Positions 3,285 through 50,800 of a stretch of DNA of 64,000 bases are shown piece after piece. The translations under genes were made by a program, and so were the position numbers. The DNA is taken from contig CDPCPM010000128.1 of assembly GCA_976551045.1 (NCBI GenBank), positions 8,184,001-8,248,000 on the forward strand, given 5' to 3'. This DNA is from Glaucostegus cemiculus (lineage: Eukaryota). The notes under the pieces are model-generated. The model saw only the letters and a list, made by a program, of their open reading frames with translations. It ran no database searches and was not told the origin of the DNA. The number at the start of each line of letters is the position of its first letter. The first letter of the stretch is position 1.

Positions 3285-3500
3285 CTCTTGGAGCTGATGT
3301 AGGTCAGCAAGTTGGTCAGCATCTGTGAAGAGAGAAACAAGGTTGACATTTTGGATCGGTGACGTTTCATCAGAACTGTTCTGAGCTCAAGTCTTGTTTC
3401 AAGCCAATGACCTTGCATCATCCATTCTGCTTCCCACCCCAGGGATGCTGCCTGGACAGCTGTGTACTTCCAGAATTTTGTATTTTTAATTTGAGTTCCT
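3285..3500. mobile_element. Penelope-like pLTR-derived inverted-repeat remnant
   Basis: cagcatctgtgaagagagaaac...tttcatcagaactg arm followed by an oppositely oriented arm (gatgctgcctggacagctgtgtacttccagaattttg). Confidence 0.7.
3341..3378 (-). ncRNA. Degenerate minimal type-I hammerhead ribozyme motif
   Basis: Minus strand: cagtt CTGATGA aacgtcaccgatcc AAAA tgtc aacc. CUGAUGA is intact, GAAA reads AAAA, stem II is damaged. Confidence 0.5.
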
Positions 3501-7459: not shown

Positions 7460-7862
7460 TACAACACGGAAGAAGGCTGTTTTGTCTCATTATGTCTATG
7501 CCAGCTTGTCCTGTTTCCCCCTGTAGACACAAGAACCTGAGGCAAGGTTTCGACCTAAATTGTTGACAGTTCCTATTGCCCCCATTGGTGCTGCTCAACT
7601 GCTGAGTTCTTCCAGAAGATCGTTTGATGCTCCTGTTCCCCTGTGACCTATTCTCCCAGCAGATTCTACCTTTTACCTATAGATCAGGGACAATTTCCAG
7701 CAACTATTTAACCAACCAACCTGCACATTTTTAGGATGTGGGAAGAAAATGGGAAAACCCCACAAGGAGCAAGTGCAGACTCCACGCATACAGCACTGGA
7801 GGTCAGGACTGAACTTGGGTCACTGGAGCTGTGAGGCAGCAGCTCTACTCAGTGTGCCACCT
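7460..7862 (-). mobile_element. V-SINE (HE1-like) interrupted by a Penelope-derived insertion
   Basis: Tail at ~7460, V-domain ggatgtgggaagaaaa, head ggtcaggactgaacttgggtcactggagctgtgaggcagcagctctac. Confidence 0.75.
7525..7632 (+). mobile_element. Penelope pLTR fragment with degenerate hammerhead motif (7535-7567)
   Basis: agacacaaga...CTGAGGC aaggtttcgacct aaat tgtt gac...ctgctgagttcttccagaag, flanked by the imperfect duplication cctgtt(t)cccc(c)tgt. Confidence 0.65.
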
Positions 7863-10479: not shown

Positions 10480-10805
10480 AGTCATAATGGAGTAAGCAAT
10501 GAACTCCTTGAGAAACCGTAATGTTCCCATGAGCTCCTGCAAATCTCTCCACTGTGACTGCTCAAAAAGGAGAAGCAGCAGTTGGAATGGTGTTGAGAAG
10601 CTTCAGTCCATTGAATGAGGAGCAGCTGGAGGCTCTGTCTGACTGGTGGATGGAGCATGCCCCATCACAAACCACCCACCCACTTGCCCGGTCAGCTAGC
10701 TGTGAAAGAGTGTGCCCTTCCAGCACTCATCGGCCACCTCAGAACCCACAAAACTGGACTGGAAGCTGCTGATCCTCATTTCCAAAGAATTGCCTTGGAA
10801 GAAGA
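10480..10805 (+). mobile_element. RTE-clade LINE 3' end
   Basis: catcggccacctcagaacccacaaaactggactggaagc...gatcctc...gaattgccttggaagaaga with a (GAA)n-like tail. An antisense copy of the same sequence is at 15091-15185. Confidence 0.6.
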
Positions 10806-11199
10806 TCAGGCATTAGGATACAGTGTCCATGGATGTAGAAATATTTTTAACTAACTTTTAGTTCATGGTTTAGGGACCTCTGGCACAAGCACTCTCCTTA
10901 TTCACATCCATTGGTTCAGCTATCCCCTCACATGTAAATTTAAATTTAAAATAGACTGATGCTGATGTATTATTAAGGTAAGGGGTGCTTGATTTTTCAA
11001 AGTGATATTGTTTGGCAGAGAAGTTAAATCAGAGTCCTCTTCCCTTTTTCTGTGATACACGTGGACAATAATTTGCTTTTAAGTAATACCTTCCAAGCCA
11101 CTATGCAATTCAAAATAGCCAGAGTAAATGAAAAAGATAATTGGAGGTGTGATTAAGAGTTCAGTCAAACTGAGCTAGGTATTATAAGAAATGAATGAT

Positions 11200-11300
11200 G
11201 CACAATATCTGAAACAAAAACAGAAAATTCTGGAAACGCTCAGCAGCTCAGAAAGGGAAACAGTTAATATTTCCAGGTTGAAGACCCTTTGTCAGAATTT
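11200..11300 (-). mobile_element. Penelope pLTR fragment with degenerate hammerhead motif (11262-11298)
   Basis: atctgaaacaaaaacagaaaattctggaaacgctcagcag...; minus strand aatt CTGACAA agggtcttcaacct gGAAA tatt aact. Confidence 0.65.
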
Positions 11301-13909: not shown

Positions 13910-14450
13910 GCATCACAGATTGCAACGTAACTGAAGGCCACTTGGTCCATCAGGTCTATGTTGGCTGTAGGCAAGTGCAATCCAGCCATTCCCAGTCCCC
14001 TGTCCTCTTCCCCATTGTGCTACTTGTACCCTCCTTTCAACTAATCCAGTTCTCTTTTGAACACCAGAACTGAATTGGGCTCCTTTACTCTTCCTGGCAA
14101 TGCATTCCAGACCCCAACCACTTTCTACGTGAAAATATTTTCAAAATGGCACACTTTTGATTCCTTTGCCGATCACGTTCGTTCTCTGTACTTGTTCTTG
14201 ACACTTCTATCTATGGAAGCATTTCCCTTCTCTAATCTCTCTGGATGCTTCATGGTTTTAAACACTGTTATCAGATCCTCTCTCAACCTTTGTCCAGGGA
14301 GCACAATCCAAGTTTCCCCAGTTTGCCCACAGAACTTAACTCCCTCATCCTGGGAATCCTTCTAGATTTAATTCTTCTGCTGTCTCTTTGGCCTTTGCAT
14401 TTTTCCTGAAGTGTGGTGCTCAGAACTGGACACAACACTGGTTTAGGCAC
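13910..14450 (-). mobile_element. CR1-clade LINE 3' fragment
   Basis: aggccacttggtccatc tail; ggcaatgcattccagaccccaaccact; gtgtggtgctcagaactggacacaa. Confidence 0.75.
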
Positions 14451-15090: not shown

Positions 15091-15185
15091 CCTCCTTTCT
15101 TGGGCAGTTCCTTGAGGTTGACGCTGACTTGCTTCCCCTCCGGTTTTGTGGGTTCTGAGGTGGCTAATGAGGCCAATGTGGGGAC
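15091..15185 (-). mobile_element. RTE-clade LINE extreme 3' end
   Basis: Reverse complement of the 10730-10805 tail (ggttttgtgggttctgaggtggctaatgag). Confidence 0.55.
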
Positions 15186-21660: not shown

Positions 21661-22869
21661 TGTTCTAGACTGTTAAAAGTTGTTTTTGAACACATTTTTA
21701 TTTTAGTTTTATTTTTAGTGCAATGAACAAAAGCGTTGCCTATTGCAGTTCTGGCCCATGCCAAAGAATTTATTCAATCATTATGCGCCTGTACTTGCAC
21801 CAAATCCTGCCCACTGAACTTCATTAGCCACCAGTCTACCAACAGCATGAGTTTAGGATTATCATCCTTGCGTTCAAATGCTTCATGGCCTGACTTTTTA
21901 AACTTCCTTTAGCTCTCTTGAAAATGTGTTTCCCCAGCTTTGGCACAACAAAGCACCATTTGCTCGATTATTTTGTTATTTCAAAAATAAACTTTATTCA
22001 TAGAAAATATCTATGGGAAATACATTACAATCAACACATGCCTTTCCTTGCATTCATAGTGTCATCAAAACAACAAATCAAAACATTCATTGTCCTGTCA
22101 TATCAATACATTATATTTACAATGCATCAAAGCCAGTCATGTTTCCTGCTCCATTTTTGGTGGCTACGCATAAAGCTGTCTAGGCTCTAGATTCTGGATT
22201 TTTCTTAAACTTCTTTTGTTTGCCATTCCTTACTCCTCATTTTAAGGTGCTCTGAAAAACACTCTTCCATCCAACTATTTGCAATTTGTTCTGATGTCTT
22301 ATGTGGTCCAGTAGAAGAAGGAGGAACATCAGAGGGAGAACGGAATAAATTATATGTTGAGTAAGGTGAATTTTTTTGGCTAATTGTGTTTTTGTGATGT
22401 TTGTTGGAGTAATTGTCCCTGGTAATTGTGTTGCCTAAATATATTGTTAATTTGGTAAATTCCTTATCTACTCTTCAACCTGCAGCCTCTTGCCTTTCAG
22501 GCTAATAATAATAAAAAAATGTGGAAAATAAAACTTGGCAGAGTGTAAAATGGATAGGTGATTTGCTATTGCCTGTTTTGCAATACTACCAAGATCAAAT
22601 TTCATCCCCTGTGGGAAGTTAGTGATGGCTAGGCATGAGGCATTTTAGCAGTAATCTTTTTTTGCTTGAGTCTAGTGTTCAGTTTGTATATCTTCATGTT
22701 GAACCAATTTTGAATTGGGTTTTCCTAAACTCAAATCATTAGGTAATCTGTAAGAATCTTACTACGCAAACACAGCAGATTACTTCAGCAAGCATAGGAC
22801 AGCATCAGTTGCTTTTATAGGCTTCAGAAATATGTCAACCAGATAATTGTTTATTGTGGGAATTATTAA

Positions 22870-23541
22870 GAGAGGCACAAGAGACTGAAGATGCTGGAAT
22901 CTGGAGCAACACACAGCACTGGAGGAACTCAGCGGGTCAGGCAGCGTCTGTGGAGGGAAATGGACAGTCGACGTTTTGGGTTGATACCCTTCATCTGGAC
23001 TGGAAAGAAAGAGGGGTGATAACCAATATAAAAAGGTGGAGGGAAGGGATGGAGGAAGAGCTGGCAGGTGATAGGTGGATCCAGGTGAGGGGAGTGATAG
23101 GCAGGTGAGTGGGAATGATAGAAGAAGCTGGGAGGTGATAGGTGGAAGTGACAAAGGGCTGAAGGTGGAATCTGATGGGAGAGGAAGGTGGAATGTGGAA
23201 TAAAGGGAGGGGAACTGGTGGGAGGAGTGTGTGGGTGATGGGCAGATGGAATAGTTAGGGAGGGGAGGACGTAGGGTGATGGGGGCCAGTTGGATCAAGA
23301 GGAGAGAGAAAAAAGACAAATGGGGGTAAAGGGACAGAGGGGGAGTGGTTATCGGAACTTTGGGAATTTTATGTTCATGCCGCCAGGTTGGAGACTATCC
23401 AGGTAGAATATGAGGTGCTGTTCATCTAATTTGCATTTAGCCTTTACCTGGCTGTGGGGGAGGCCGTAAACAGATGTATCGGTGTGGGAATTGAAATGGC
23501 TGGCGACTGGGAGACCTCGGCTGGTACGGCGGACAGAGCGG
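22870..23541 (-). mobile_element. 5'-truncated Penelope-like retroelement (GIY-YIG C-terminus, 3' region, hammerhead motif)
   Basis: Minus strand 23540-23349 translates RSVRRTSRGLPVASHFNSHTDTSVYGLPHSQVKAKCKLDEQHLIFYLDSLQPGGMNIKFPKFR*. 8-bp TSD attattaa at 22862-22869 and 23542-23549. Confidence 0.9.
22965..23002 (-). ncRNA. Minimal type-I hammerhead-like motif (variant core)
   Basis: cagtc CAGATGA agggtatcaaccc AAAA cgtc gactg: perfect 5-bp stem I, GGG/CCC stem II, ACGU palindrome and GUC cleavage triplet. Confidence 0.6.
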
Positions 23542-23997
23542 ATTATTAAAATCAGTTGCTTTGAGATTATGGTACTAGATTAAATCTGAATTCTGTGAAA
23601 TATTGTAGATTCCTTTTGAATAAGGATTTTACACCCTGCCTAAAATGAACCTGATGATGTGCAATAGAACTTTCTGTATTTGATCCATTTTATTACTTAT
23701 ATATCAACCAAAATGAATAGTAAAACTGTTGACCTCAATTTGACCCCAGGATATCAAATCCTGTAAAGTTAGTCCAGCCATCTAACACTGACTGTTTTAA
23801 GGGCTGTTCACTCTCAAATGCAGAGTACTTAATACCTCCGTAATTATTCAGGAACCACATAATGGCCTATTCCAGAAAATCTGGTGATCGCTTATCTTGA
23901 GGGTCAAATAAAACACACAACTATGTCGCATTTAGATCAGGATTCCCGCCAGAAGACATATTCCCTCCTTTTAGGTCAGTTACAGTCAGTTGGTATA

Positions 23998-25049: not shown

Positions 25050-25340
25050 ATGTATTGGCAGAAGGGTCGAGGAGGGATGACATAGAATTATCTGGTTGGC
25101 CAAAGAATCAGAACTGAGATGAGGGGAACCTTTTTTTATGCATTAAATGGTTGGGGTCAGAAATGCACTGTCAGGAGGAATATTGAAGACAGATTCAGTT
25201 GTAGCATTCAGTAGGGAGCAAGATTAGTAGCTGAATGAAAAGAATTTACAGGTCCATGGGGAGTGAGACTAGCTGGACTGCTCTTACATAGATCCAGTAT
25301 GGACTTGACAGGCCAAATGTCCTCCTTTCCTGTAACACGA
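25050..25340 (+). mobile_element. CR1 LINE 3' fragment
   Basis: gagatgaggggaaccttttttt...aatgcactgtc...ggccaaatgtcctcctttcctgt. Confidence 0.7.
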
Positions 25341-25882: not shown

Positions 25883-26375
25883 AACAACTTGCATTTATAT
25901 AATGAATTTTACGCCCTTTGGGTATTCGAAAGTACTCCAAAGACGGTGAAGTCACCGTTGTACTGTAGGAAACACAGCAGTCAACCATAGTGTGGCAGAA
26001 GCAAGGACCTATGAGTCCTGATGCAGGGTCTCAACCCAAAACGTTGACCATTCCCTTTGCCTCCATGGATGCTGCTTGACCCACAAAGGGTGTTTTATTC
26101 CAGCAGTTTTATTTTTTACTCCAGATTCCAGTGTCTGCTGTCACTTGTGTTATCTATAAACAGCAATGTGATAATGATCAGTTAATTTATTTTTAGTGAT
26201 GTTGATTTTTAAATGAATACTGGGCAGGACATCAGGTTTATTCTCTGCTCTTTGCATAGTGCCAAGGGATCTTTTATGCCCATCCTGGAGGGCAGGTGGA
26301 GGACAAGGTACATACCACATAAAACACCGGTGCACAAGATATTAGACAAGTGTGTTCACGTGGATTGTAGAATGA
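25883..26375 (-). mobile_element. Deu-domain SINE interrupted by a Penelope fragment
   Basis: aacaacttgcatttatata L2-type tail; aacagcaatgtgataatgatcag; ctgctctttgcatagtgccaagggatctttta. Confidence 0.7.
26013..26150 (+). mobile_element. Penelope pLTR fragment with hammerhead motif (26015-26048)
   Basis: gtc CTGATGC agggtctcaaccc AAAA cgtt gac...gatgctgcttgaccc...ccagattccagtgtctgctgtcacttgtgt. Confidence 0.75.
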
Positions 26376-26770: not shown

Positions 26771-27748
26771 TGTAACTGGTGGAGTTCCCCAAGGTTCTTG
26801 CGCCTCTATTTATGATTTAATATTAATGATCTGGAGGAGGGGGTAAGTTTGCTGATGGCATAGAAGTAAATGGGAGGCCCTGTTGTGATGAAGGTATTAG
26901 GAGTCTGCAACAGGATATGGGCAGGTTGAATGAGTGGGTAAAAACTTGGCAAGTGGAGTCTAATGTGGGAAAGTGGGAGGTTGTGCATTTCAGTAAGAGG
27001 AACTTTAAATGGAGAAAGATTGCAGATGAGTGAAGTACAGAGGAATTTAGGTGTACTCATGCATGCATCACAAGAAGTTGGAATAAATGAGTCTTTTATT
27101 ACAACAAGTGTTTAGGAAGGCACATTGCTCATTGGCCTTTATTGCAGGTTGAAGTTTAGAAATGGAGAAGTCTAGTTGCAATTGTACAGGGTACTGGTGA
27201 GGCCATACCTGGAGTACTGTTCGTGGTTTTGGTCCCCTTATTTAAGGATATACTGACAGTCCAAAGGAGATTCACTGGGCTAATTCCTGGGATGAGATGT
27301 TTGTCGTATCACAAGTGGCTAAAGAACTTGGGTCTTATATTCTTTGGAGCTTTCAAGACTGGGGGGATAATCTTATTAAAACATACACATGATCGTTAGA
27401 GGCATGACAGGGTAGGTGTCAAGATGTTTCCACTAGTGGGAGAATCTCAAACAAGGGGATATAGTCACAAGATTAGTGGGGCGGTCATTTAAAACTGAGG
27501 TGCGTAGCAACTTCTTGCGGAGAATGGTAAACTTCTGGAATTTCTATCCTTGTGGAGGGTAAATCATTGGGGCTGTTTGAAGAGGAAGTAGATACATTTT
27601 TGAAAAATCAGGTATTTAAAGGTTATGAGGAACCAGCATGGAAGAGACGAGGCCTGGGGCAGACCAGCCATTATCATAACAAATGACAGCGCAGGCTTGA
27701 GGGCCGAGTGGCCTACTCCTGTTTTATTGTGTACTTGTGTTCTTATGG
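26771..27748 (+). mobile_element. CR1 LINE (RT C-terminal half and 3' end)
   Basis: GGVPQGS, INDLEEG, KFAD motifs with frameshifts; RPYLEYC; tail gggccgagtggcctactcctg...tgttcttatg. Confidence 0.9.
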
Positions 27749-34818: not shown

Positions 34819-35020
34819 GAGCAAAAAACAAGGTGCTGGAGGGAGATGGACAGTTGATGTTTTGGGTCAAGACCCACCATCTGGACTGGTGCGCCCAATC
34901 CAGATGAAGGGTCTTGACCTGAAATGTCAACTGTCCCTCCGCAAATGCTGCCTGACCCCTTGAGTTCCTCCAGCAGTTTGTTTTTTGCTCCAGGTTCCAG
35001 CATCTGCAGTCTCTTGTCTC
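34819..35020. mobile_element. Penelope-derived fold-back element (two inverted pLTR arms, each with a hammerhead-like motif)
   Basis: Arms ggacagttgatgttttgggtcaagacccaccatctgga and tccagatgaagggtcttgacctgaaatgtcaactgtcc around a 13-nt loop. TSD aat[g/a]tgcctt at 34809-34818 and 35021-35030. Confidence 0.85.
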
Positions 35021-35286: not shown

Positions 35287-35491
35287 TCGAAATGTGAGCC
35301 CAAAACCACGATGGCAAAACCCAAGAATAACAACAGCAACTGCAAAAATATCACAGCTGATGAAAAATCAAAGGTTGCAGCGGGCGATGAATGCAGAGCA
35401 GAGGAACAGGCTTTCCTCGTCACCCTTTACAAGTATATGAAAGAAAGAAATACTCCAATAGAAAGGATACCGTATCTTGGATTTAAACAAA
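35287..35491 (+). CDS. ARID5B: ARID5B coding exon (human exon 6 equivalent), start of ARID domain
   Basis: tctcag|TCG...CAA A|gtaagt, 205 nt, phase 0 to 1. SKCEPKTTMAKPKNNNSNCKNITADEKSKVAAGDECRAEEQAFLVTLYKYMKERNTPIERIPYLGFKQ. Confidence 0.97.
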
Positions 35492-38782: not shown

Positions 38783-39020
38783 AAATTTAAATTTTATTTA
38801 CAGCGTGGTAACAGGCCCTTTTGGCCCAACGAATCCGCGCCGCCCATTTTAAACCCCCTACCCGTATGTCTTTAGAATGTGGGAGGAAACCGGAGCACCC
38901 AGAGGAAACCCACGCAGACACGGCAGAACGTACAAACTCCTTACAGTCAGCGACGGGAATCGAACCCCTTCGCTGGCGCTGTAACAGCGTCGCGCTAACC
39001 GCTACGCTATCGTGCTGCCC
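38783..39020 (-). mobile_element. Young V-SINE with intact Pol III boxes
   Basis: Minus strand A box TAGCGTAGCGG, B box GGTTCGATTCC, V-domain GTGGGTTTCCTCTGGGTGCTCCGGTTTCCTCCCACA, CR1-type tail. Many CpGs retained; possible TSD atgtt. Confidence 0.92.
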
Positions 39021-45848: not shown

Positions 45849-46152
45849 TAGATATAGATATTTATTAGTCACATGTACATTGAAACACACAGTGAAATGC
45901 ATCTTGTTGCATTACTGAGAATGTGCTGGGGGCAGCCTGCAAGTGTCACCACTCTTCTGGTGCCAACGTAGCATGCCCACCGCTCCTAACCTGTACACCT
46001 TTGGAATGTGGGAGGAAACCGGAGCACCCGGAGGAAACCCACACAGACATGGGGAGAACATACAGACTCCTTGCAGATAGCAGCCGGAATTGAACCCATA
46101 ACGCTGGCTCTGTAGTAGCGTTACGCTAACTGCTACGCTACTGTGTCGACCC
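45849..46152 (-). mobile_element. V-SINE with Rex-like (non-CR1) 3' tail
   Basis: A box TAGCGTAGCAG, B box GGTTCAATTCC, near-perfect V-domain, then ...gcatttcactgtgtgtttcaatgtacatgtgactaataaatatctatatcta. Confidence 0.88.
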
Positions 46153-47084: not shown

Positions 47085-47356
47085 CATCAGTGGGAGAGTC
47101 GCAGACAAGGGGACATGGCTACAAAATAAGGGGCCGGCCATTTAAAACTGAGGTCTTCTCTCATAGGGTTAGTGACTCTCAGGAACACTGTACCGTCGAG
47201 GGTAGTGGAGATGGATAAATATTTGAAAGATGGGTGGCTGTGGGGAACTGGCACAGAAGAGCAGTTGAACCCAGCAAAGATCAGCCATAATCATGTTGAA
47301 TGATGAGGCAGGTTTGAGGGCCCTGGTGGCCTACTCAGGTTCCTATTTCTTGTGTT
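47085..47356 (+). mobile_element. CR1 LINE 3' end
   Basis: aaggggacatggctacaaaataaggggccggccatttaaaactgagg...ggcctactcaggttcctatttcttgtgtt, same family as 27450-27745. Confidence 0.85.
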
Positions 47357-49699: not shown

Positions 49700-50800
49700 C
49701 ATCATGAGCTATACAGGAGGGATTAGGGCAAATGACGAAGAGATGGATCTAAGCGTTGGCCCTTAAGGATCCACTAAAAGGAGGGAAAAGAGTCAGAGAG
49801 ACAGATGGGTTTTGGGAGGGAATTCTGGAACTTTAGTCTCTGGGACCAGAAAACATGGCCACCAATGGTGGAGCAATTAATTTCATGGATGATGAGGCAG
49901 CCAGAATTAGAATGATGCTGATATCAAGGAGGGTTGCAGGCAGGGGTGAAAGTAACTTAAATTCCCACTAGCATGTAAATTTCTTAGCAAAAGTTCATGA
50001 TGCCAGCCACTTTCTTACTGTGCCAGCCTGCACCAGCTTACTTCCTCCTCTGGTGGAGGGCTAAAGGTCAGGGATGTACAAGGACTTGAAAACAAAGATG
50101 AGAATTTTTAAGGTTGGGCCTTGTTCAACTAGGAGACTGAAGTTCAGTGAGCACAGGGGTGAGGAGTAAACAGGACTTGATGCTCGTTAGTATATATGAA
50201 TTTGTGTGACATTGATTTCAGAGTCTAGAAAGATGGAGCCTGTCAAGTAATGTATTGAAATAGACAGGTTTAAATGGACAAAGCTGTGAGTGAGGATTTC
50301 AGCAGGAGATGAACTGAGACTGGTGAAGTAGGGCAACCTAACAGATGGCAATTGGCAGTGTTGGTGATGGCAGATATGGGAGCTGGGAAGCACAACCTGA
50401 GGCCAAACATAACATTAGCATGGTGAACAATCAGTAAAAATCATAAAACCTGCAGATGCTGGAAATCTGAAGCAAAAACTGAAAACACTGGAAATATTCA
50501 GCAGGTCAGGCAGCATTTGTGGAAAGAGAAACCAAATTATTGGTTTGCTGGGTGTTTCCCGGAGCTGAACAATCGGGTTTGGTTTCAGACAGCTGCTAGG
50601 AAGAGGGACGGAGCTGGAGGTTAGGGAAGTGAGTTTGGGATGTGGACCGGAGATGCTGGCTTCAGTCTTCCCAGTATTTGATTGTGGGAAAGTTCCTATT
50701 GAACGGGGACATTTGCAATTCAGGGAATGGAGTGGGCAAATGAAAAGTGTTAGTGAGGGAAGGCTGAGTATTGTCAGGATACTGACACTGTGTTTTCAGA
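49700..50800 (-). mobile_element. Decayed L2 LINE
   Basis: gggagggaattctggaac, ggacttgaaaacaaagatgagaatttt, tgtattgaaatagacaggtttaa...tgaggatttcagcagg (antisense SPAEILTHSF, L2 ORF2-like). Confidence 0.7.
50433..50565 (-). mobile_element. Penelope pLTR fragment inserted in L2
   Basis: ctgcagatgctggaaatctgaagcaaaaactgaaaacactggaaatattcagcaggtcaggcagcatttgtgg. 9-bp TSD tgaacaatc at 50424-50432 and 50566-50574. Confidence 0.8.

What the first reader, a model, noticed from the sequence alone, without database searches (positions are those of the whole stretch)
22965..23002. Family of minimal hammerhead ribozyme motifs scattered through ARID5B introns by Penelope-like elements
Seen: the pattern stemI-CTGATGA-A-GGG..CCC-GAAA-CGTC-stemI' is recognisable at 3341-3378(-), 7535-7567(+), 11262-11298(-), 22965-23002(-), 26015-26048(+), 34851-34888(-) and 34896-34933(+). 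The 22965 copy has a perfect cagtc/gactg stem I, an ACGU palindrome in place of stem III and a GUC triplet, and it sits in an element that also encodes a GIY-YIG C-terminus. Known: Penelope-like elements carry minimal type-I hammerheads that lack a stable stem III and are thought to cleave as dimers. Inference: these are ribozyme fossils. No copy here is fully canonical, and C-GAAA to CAAAA/TGAAA changes fit CpG decay.
Basis: partly seen in the sequence, partly recalled or inferred. Interest (0 to 1): 0.7.

Follow-up and report, generated by a model that had tools for sequence, protein, structure and literature searches.

The report
Penelope hammerhead fossils with inherited defect
These seven short motifs in ARID5B introns are decayed end-pieces of a very common, already known jumping gene that carries a miniature self-cutting RNA; the one point of interest is that whole branches of the family multiplied with an altered catalytic core, which likely means the cutting was not needed for copying.

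Summary
All seven copies are real (9 profile hits in the window, 0 in reversed DNA) and intronic. They are 3' ends of Neptune-type Penelope-like elements, whose minimal hammerheads are published (PMC4209133). ARID5B is not special: 36 hits in 200 kb sampled elsewhere. No window copy has an intact core. One correction: the 22965 copy reads CAGATGA, not CTGATGA. This U4A change is inherited, not decay: 20 of 25 copies of its tail subfamily carry it against 2 of 92 others, and carriers form one clade. A second subfamily carries C at position 9 (17 of 20). CpG decay explains the G12 losses. 5' ends cluster at the foot of the hammerhead (63 of 198), not at the predicted cut (11 of 198, background rate), equally for canonical and variant cores. 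This fits uncut RNA as template, as shown in vitro for an anole element (PMC11167929). Cleavage was not testable; RNA reads show no end pile-up. This scan has noted the family many times on other DNA, including the fixed start. Known kind, modest interest.

The parts
22870..23541 (-). 5'-truncated 3' end of a Penelope-like element: end of the endonuclease frame, pyrimidine-rich UTR, hammerhead, tail
   Evidence: 46 matches among 40 scored of 9036 candidates, 74-88% identical; longer relatives continue into RT and zinc-finger/GIY-YIG frames
23349..23541 (-). C-terminal part of the GIY-YIG endonuclease frame with its stop
   Evidence: 56% identity over 72 aa to L023; L023 scores 0.96 to GIY-YIG clusters; no Pfam hit on its own
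22965..23002 (-). Minimal type I hammerhead, U4A subfamily; G12 lost at a CpG site; predicted cut between 22970 and 22969; predicted inactive
22870..22964 (-). Tail 3' of the hammerhead, full-length form, carrying the TCCA subfamily mark
   Evidence: 3' ends of 227 copies are bimodal at about 60-79 and 85-94 nt past the cut
22862..22869 (.). 8-bp AT-rich direct repeat, one arm of a likely target-site duplication
   Evidence: identical 8-mer at both ends, next to the homology boundaries
23542..23549 (.). 8-bp AT-rich direct repeat, other arm
34837..34889 (-). Short inverted copy (hammerhead 34851-34888), U4A subfamily, with further changes at 9, 12 and 16.2; left arm of a head-to-head pair
34895..35017 (+). 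Hammerhead (34896-34933) plus full tail, U4A subfamily, G12 kept, stems partly broken; right arm of the pair
26013..26149 (+). Hammerhead plus tail with C at position 9; begins at the foot of stem I; G12 lost
7535..7637 (+). Degraded copy with C at position 9
   Evidence: E 2.6e-13
3292..3380 (-). Older-type copy; 5' core half canonical, G12 lost, stem II broken
   Evidence: E 2.5e-9
3435..3489 (+). Tail-only piece facing away from the 3341 copy (inverted partner)
   Evidence: E 4.5e-8
11198..11299 (-). Most degraded copy, G8 lost, deletion in the tail
   Evidence: E 5.6e-5
50445..50527 (-).
   Evidence: E 1.6e-14
35287..35491 (+). ARID5B exon starting the ARID domain (host gene context)
   Evidence: E 6e-13 to PDB 1ig6; splice sites

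Best explanation
The seven motifs are decayed 3' ends of Neptune-type Penelope-like retrotransposons, each holding a damaged minimal type I hammerhead that is predicted to be inactive and likely does nothing for ARID5B. In source elements the motif sat in the terminal repeat and would cut only when two copies pair through the ACGU palindrome, likely with help from the element's protein (inferred from papers). Copies were made by reverse transcription starting in the tail (inferred) and most stopped early. The commonest stop is the foot of stem I, which is likely the start of the element's RNA, so the template was mostly uncut RNA. Because cutting was likely not required for copying, source elements with A at position 4 or C at position 9 could each seed thousands of insertions. 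After insertion the copies drifted, CpG sites fastest.
For: Shown: order RT, cysteine linker, GIY-YIG, UTR, hammerhead, tail in the longer copies. Exact descriptor matches in the genome 1627, control 0, of which 334 have A4 with A9 and 313 have U4 with C9; another canonical subfamily gives 2083. Among copies picked by tail sequence only, A4 is in 20 of 25 TCCA copies and 2 of 92 others; C9 in 17 of 20 TTCC copies and 1 of 97 others. With positions 4 and 9 masked, all 27 A4 copies among 53 long copies fall in one 29-leaf clade, support 0.895. Exact tail counts 5410 (TCCA) and 2989 (TTCC) against 6262 and 3439 for canonical-core tails. 5' ends: 63 of 198 at 28-35 nt before the cut, per-base rate 6.8% against 1.0-1.4% on either side; 11 of 198 within 2 nt of the cut, rate 1.1%; canonical 5 of 100 against variant 6 of 98. 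Core identity 94% against 90% for base-matched background, p=0.078. Papers: core mutants do not reduce insertion in vitro and unprocessed RNA is the main substrate (PMC11167929); single mutants in the CUGA region have low activity (PMC9901934).
Against: No cleavage was measured, so 'inactive' rests on other hammerheads. A U4C viroid variant stays functional in vivo (PMC3088659). C9 can also be read as a C inserted before an intact A9. The uncorrected core-versus-tail comparison was significant (94% against 89%, p=0.014) and only fell to p=0.078 with base matching. The A4 clade has modest support and 26 of its 29 leaves are close BLAST matches of the window copy. Variant RNAs could have been copied by, or paired with, canonical elements in trans. 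The foot cluster could also come from fold-back of new DNA: 54 of 110 short copies have an inverted partner against 2 of 99 long ones. No intact element or full tandem unit was found, and Pfam support for the RT is sub-threshold.
Confidence: 0.7

Rival explanations
1. U4A (and C9) are working core variants: the source ribozymes still cut, helped by dimer formation and the element's protein, and cutting remained part of the cycle.
For: The rest of the motif (both stems, palindrome, GUC) is unchanged in the A4 majority; non-CpG core positions are slightly better kept than background; all 4 copies of 198 that start exactly at the cut are in variant-tail groups; the anole ribozyme needs protein; U4C is tolerated in a viroid.
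Against: Low activity of CUGA-region single mutants; no excess of ends at the cut; the one literature search for U4A with hammerhead listed 2 unrelated papers.
Confidence: 0.15
2. The short copies are a separate non-autonomous family (hammerhead plus tail, SINE- or retrozyme-like) with its own transcripts, not by-products of full elements.
For: Sharp shared 5' boundary; 110 of 227 copies lack the UTR; reads are several times deeper over hammerhead and tail than over the UTR; non-autonomous derivatives are described (bioRxiv 2026.07.22.740005).
Against: Short and long copies carry the same subfamily marks in all four groups; same-direction neighbours show no fixed spacing in 147 loci; inverted partners are typical of ordinary insertions (PMC8557442).
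Confidence: 0.1
3. One or more copies were kept by the host to cut or regulate ARID5B pre-mRNA.
For: Three of the 7 (7535, 26015, 34896) lie sense to the gene.
Against: Every copy has core or stem damage; density is no higher than elsewhere; the focal copy is antisense and 9% diverged from its clade majority, within the 7.5-13.7% range.
Confidence: 0.02
4. The non-canonical bases are all independent decay after insertion.
For: True for CpG sites and for scattered changes; C or G at position 4 gives 186 matches.
Against: A4 and C9 are linked to distinct tail marks and A4 to one clade.
Confidence: 0.03

Closest known systems
Minimal hammerheads (min-HHR) in terminal repeats of metazoan Penelope-like elements (Cervera and De la Pena 2014, PMC4209133; parts 1-2 of 4 read)
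   Same: Type I layout, 5-bp stem I, extra base between positions 9 and 10.1, G10.1-C11.1 pair, palindromic 15.2-16.2 with no stem III, mostly single truncated copies, several consensus families per genome; reported in Xena, Poseidon and Neptune elements of fishes.
   Different: Stem II is 4-5 bp, shorter than the 7-8 bp given for schistosome motifs. The core variant described there is the compensated U3-A8; the uncompensated A4 and C9 lineages were not in the parts read. Copy number here is far higher counting decayed copies.
Neptune clade of endonuclease-positive Penelope-like elements (PMC8557442, passages read)
   Same: RT followed by a cysteine zinc-finger-like linker and C-terminal GIY-YIG; 5' truncation, inverted 5' partners and an optional tail.
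   Different: Clade placed by motif only; no RT tree was built and no intact ORF was found.
Anole Poseidon element PAc (Frangieh et al. 2024, PMC11167929; parts 1-2 of 4 read)
   Same: Two 3' ends downstream of the hammerhead, AT-rich target, no RNA ends at the cut, ribozyme dispensable for insertion in vitro.
   Different: Different clade; there the ORF starts inside the hammerhead, which was not established here.
Non-LTR retrozymes (bioRxiv 2026.07.22.740005; parts 1-3 of 5 read)
   Same: Type I hammerheads derived from Penelope terminal repeats, many monomers.
   Different: Defined as tandem repeats with complete motifs; the window copies are dispersed or head-to-head.

Membership tests
Metazoan PLE minimal hammerhead (family majority) | Type I topology with stems I and II | tested here: met
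   84% of cells paired and 5 of 9 pairs with a two-sided change in a hand-picked 20-row alignment; slid controls 13-43%. The stem II A-U change was required by the search pattern, so it is not independent.
Metazoan PLE minimal hammerhead (family majority) | No stem III; palindromic 15.1-16.1 | tested here: met
   ACGT in all four subfamily majorities
Metazoan PLE minimal hammerhead (family majority) | Conserved core C3 U4 G5 A6 N7 G8 A9, G12 A13 A14, NUH | tested here: met
   Met in two subfamilies (intact in 19 of 36 and 8 of 21 tail-picked copies)
Metazoan PLE minimal hammerhead (window copies and A4/C9 subfamilies) | Conserved core | tested here: not met
   0 of 7 window copies; 0 of 20 TCCA and 0 of 9 TTCC copies
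Metazoan PLE minimal hammerhead | Located in the terminal repeat of a Penelope-like element | tested here: met
   Same-strand motif a few hundred bases past the endonuclease frame in most RT-bearing loci
Metazoan PLE minimal hammerhead | Self-cleavage as a dimer | not testable with these tools
   Needs an assay; RNA reads of a coded organism show no end pile-up, which such libraries may not reveal
Penelope-like element, EN+ | RT followed by C-terminal GIY-YIG | tested here: met
   Order shown; Atlas GIY-YIG 0.96; RVT_1 only weak, 2 of 6 frames at E 0.05-0.08
Penelope-like element, EN+ | Inverted 5' partners and optional tail | tested here: met
   54 of 110 short copies with inverted partner; bimodal 3' ends
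Penelope-like element, EN+ | Partial tandem (repeat-ORF-repeat) unit | tested here: inconclusive
   None recognised among the 30 loci; not searched further
Neptune clade | CX2-5CxxC linker before the GIY-YIG motif | tested here: met
   Seen in translations of L023, L035, L161, L164, L170; definition in PMC8557442
Neptune clade | Placement in an RT phylogeny | not tested
   No reference RT set was at hand
Non-LTR retrozyme | Tandem units each with a complete hammerhead | tested here: not met
   Window copies are single or head-to-head; no fixed same-strand spacing in 147 loci

The most novel reading that the evidence does not exclude
Two Penelope subfamilies whose hammerheads carry fixed core changes (A at 4, C at 9) each multiplied into thousands of copies, and all subfamilies were copied mostly from uncut RNA starting at the foot of the ribozyme. 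This would be a natural in vivo experiment showing that hammerhead cleavage is dispensable for Penelope retrotransposition, or else the first large natural family of working U4A hammerheads.
Probability: 0.5. Interest if true: 0.5.

Novelty: new member of a known kind. Interest (0 to 1): 0.27.

Why it matters
The finding as written is a known arrangement in one more vertebrate and has no bearing on ARID5B. What the Penelope hammerhead is for remains open: one in vitro study found it unnecessary for insertion. Side-by-side subfamilies with canonical and altered cores give ready natural test pairs for that question, and the shared 5' boundary predicts where the element's RNA starts.

Tried and rejected
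Rfam scan: 5 chance-level hits, no hammerhead. Pfam on the endonuclease and RT pieces: nothing significant. Search for an intact element: longest open frame among 150 scored RT matches was 375 aa; 20 stretches of 7-10 kb gave no full ORF or tandem unit. Cut-site footprint reported in earlier scan notes on other genomes: not seen above background here, 11 of 198; the sample cannot exclude a few percent. Two duplicate loci were dropped from 200 before that count. Extra G before the shared start (cap copy; lead from earlier notes): 11 of 17 informative copies, p=0.008, but 3 of 7 without an inverted partner, and no excess one base further in (7 of 22); left as weak (227 of 257 copies kept after removing duplicates). 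Selection on inserted cores: p=0.078 after base matching. Run search: no RNA holder listed. Laid raw RNA reads of coded organism A: family reads on both strands, no place where many molecules begin or end. Folding: the predicted lowest-energy monomer is a rod, not the hammerhead fold, for both U4 and A4 copies, and is not informative on activity. The first 5'-boundary pass used truncated references for two groups and was redone. My note of 29 of 31 for the A4 clade was a miscount; the count is 27 of 29. Lunse et al. 2017 and Ambros and Flores 1998 are not held, so they were seen only as citations; Lunse et al. may already list such core variants.

Full report
Observation. The seven coordinates were read directly and aligned. 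All are homologues of one repeat end. A profile made from 133 copies elsewhere in the genome finds 9 hits in the window and none in reversed control DNA. The pattern is looser than stated: CTGATGA is present in 1 of 7 copies and G12 in 2 of 7. The focal copy at 22965-23002(-) has perfect stems, the ACGT palindrome and the GTC triplet, but its core reads CAGATGA and G12 is lost. A strict descriptor finds no intact motif in the window or in 200 kb sampled at 20 arbitrary places. Rfam finds no hammerhead.

Host gene. ARID5B runs on the + strand. Upstream exons lie 44.5 and 8.5 kb before the window and the next at about 33.7 kb, so five copies sit in one long intron and the 34.8-35.0 kb pair in the next. 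Exons outside the two PDB matches were located with short peptide motifs recalled from memory. Density is 9 hits in 64 kb here, 36 in 200 kb elsewhere and 29 in the adjoining 120 kb. Scaled to the 2.85-Gb assembly this is roughly half a million pieces (inference). The gene is not enriched.

The element. The focal copy ends a 672-bp insertion (22870-23541) flanked by an 8-bp AT-rich direct repeat. It holds the last part of a reading frame 56% identical to a longer copy that resembles GIY-YIG clusters in the Atlas. RT-bearing relatives show the order RT, cysteine linker, GIY-YIG, UTR, hammerhead, tail. The linker matches the Neptune/Nematis description in PMC8557442 (passages). Pfam support is weak and no intact ORF was found. 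3' ends are bimodal and short copies often carry an inverted partner, 54 of 110 against 2 of 99 for UTR-bearing copies; both are described features of the class. The 34837-35017 pair is such a structure.

Subfamilies. An exact descriptor matches 1627 times with control 0: 334 have A at position 4 and 313 C at position 9. A further canonical subfamily with A at the free position 7 gives 2083. To avoid selecting on the ribozyme I picked 200 copies by tail sequence alone. A4 is in 20 of 25 readable TCCA-tail copies and 2 of 92 others; C9 in 17 of 20 TTCC-tail copies and 1 of 97 others. In a tree of 53 long copies with both positions masked, the 27 A4 copies lie in one 29-leaf clade (support 0.895) nested among U4 copies; most of those leaves were found by similarity to the window copy. 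The clade is star-like, about 10% diverged outside CpG sites. Exact tail counts are 5410 and 2989 for the variant-core tails and 6262 and 3439 for the canonical ones, all lower bounds. The A4 state is also the majority among records laid on this stretch from four coded organisms, though laying favours records like the reference.

Decay. In 25 A4-clade copies chosen by a 750-bp search, CpG positions keep 63% identity, other tail positions 89% and non-CpG core positions 94%. Against base-matched columns the core excess has p=0.078. One of 25 keeps the whole core apart from position 4.

Where copies begin. Of 198 tail-picked copies (2 duplicates dropped), 63 start 28-35 nt before the predicted cut, at the foot of stem I, a per-base rate of 6.8% against 1.0% and 1.4% on either side. 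Eleven start within 2 nt of the cut, a rate of 1.1%, split 5 of 100 canonical and 6 of 98 variant. If cut RNA were a common template, copies should begin at the cut. A transcript start at the foot is the simplest reading; the bases there resemble an initiator element (recalled, not tested). Fold-back of new DNA on stem I is a live alternative, given the inverted partners. A test for a copied cap G was weak. I had seen the cluster before consulting earlier notes, which report the same fixed start in other genomes; several also report a cut-site footprint that I could not see here.

RNA. No RNA holder was listed. Raw RNA reads of coded organism A lie on the family in large numbers on both strands, 14,000-36,000 of 11-13 million records, with no place where many molecules begin or end. 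These are reads of many copies in what may be another species and say nothing on this copy.

Mechanism and literature. Minimal hammerheads in Penelope terminal repeats, inactive as monomers and weak as dimers, are described in PMC4209133 (parts 1-2 of 4 read; two supplement files searched without a hit for sharks, skates or the A4 core, file 1 not searchable). In PMC11167929 (parts 1-2 of 4) core mutants did not affect insertion, uncut RNA was the main substrate and no reads ended at the cut. PMC9901934 (passages) reports low activity for CUGA-region single mutants. PMC3088659 (passages and section 8) lists natural core variants including a tolerated U4C; its figure was not visible. PMC6765202 and PMC11014351 were seen as passages and the bioRxiv retrozyme paper as parts 1-3 of 5; it sampled one cartilaginous fish. 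Searches listed no paper on shark or ray Penelope hammerheads or on U4A; Lunse et al. 2017 was not held and may cover them. Shown here: identity, structure, subfamily linkage and end distribution. Inferred: inactivity, dispensability and the transcript start. The label 'shark- or ray-like' comes from earlier notes and was not tested.

Verdict. A real, very common, known kind of element; the window copies are fossils. The inherited core changes and the shared start make a modest, testable side result, and this scan has noted both before in some form.

Noticed in passing
genome-wide; L209-L227, L228-L257: The subfamily with A at position 7 and a GUU triplet has a canonical core, intact in 19 of 36 tail-picked copies, and 2083 exact matches; the best source of natural active candidates. 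Its stem I has a mismatch at the fourth pair.
   Followed up: partly
L187, L189, L191, L193, L202, L204, L206, L207; window 3341 and 11262 resemble them: An older subfamily with a one-base longer stem II loop changes the first pair of stem I from C-G to U-A (U in 6 of 8, A in 7 of 8), positions not required by the search pattern.
   Followed up: partly
L333, L338, L323, L413: Some short copies are preceded directly by the mirror image of their own tail, joined at stem I, as expected from fold-back priming on the hairpin.
   Followed up: partly
window 23015-23314: In the three RNA runs, reads over the UTR part favour one orientation about 2-7 fold while hammerhead and tail are near even; if the libraries are stranded this is element-sense transcription in organism A.
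   Followed up: no
window 38870-39009 and 45999-46140; 27435-27501 and 47089-47154; 14040-14123 and 25145-25228; 10726-10766 and 15131-15171: Other dispersed repeats shared within the window (72-88% identity), unrelated to the hammerhead family by the profile.
   Followed up: no
L025, L030, L035, L175: Long frames of a second, LINE-type reverse transcriptase (CR1-like by recall) lie next to several Penelope fragments.
   Followed up: no
L050, L051, L052 (contig C4); L288-L290 (contig C1): Copies embedded in larger duplicated blocks (90-99% identical flanks for L050-L052), so some counts include segmental duplicates.
   Followed up: partly
one search list: 186 matches have C or G at position 4; the seven C4/A9 loci read mostly carry the canonical subfamily's tail, so these may be decay or a further small lineage.
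   Followed up: partly
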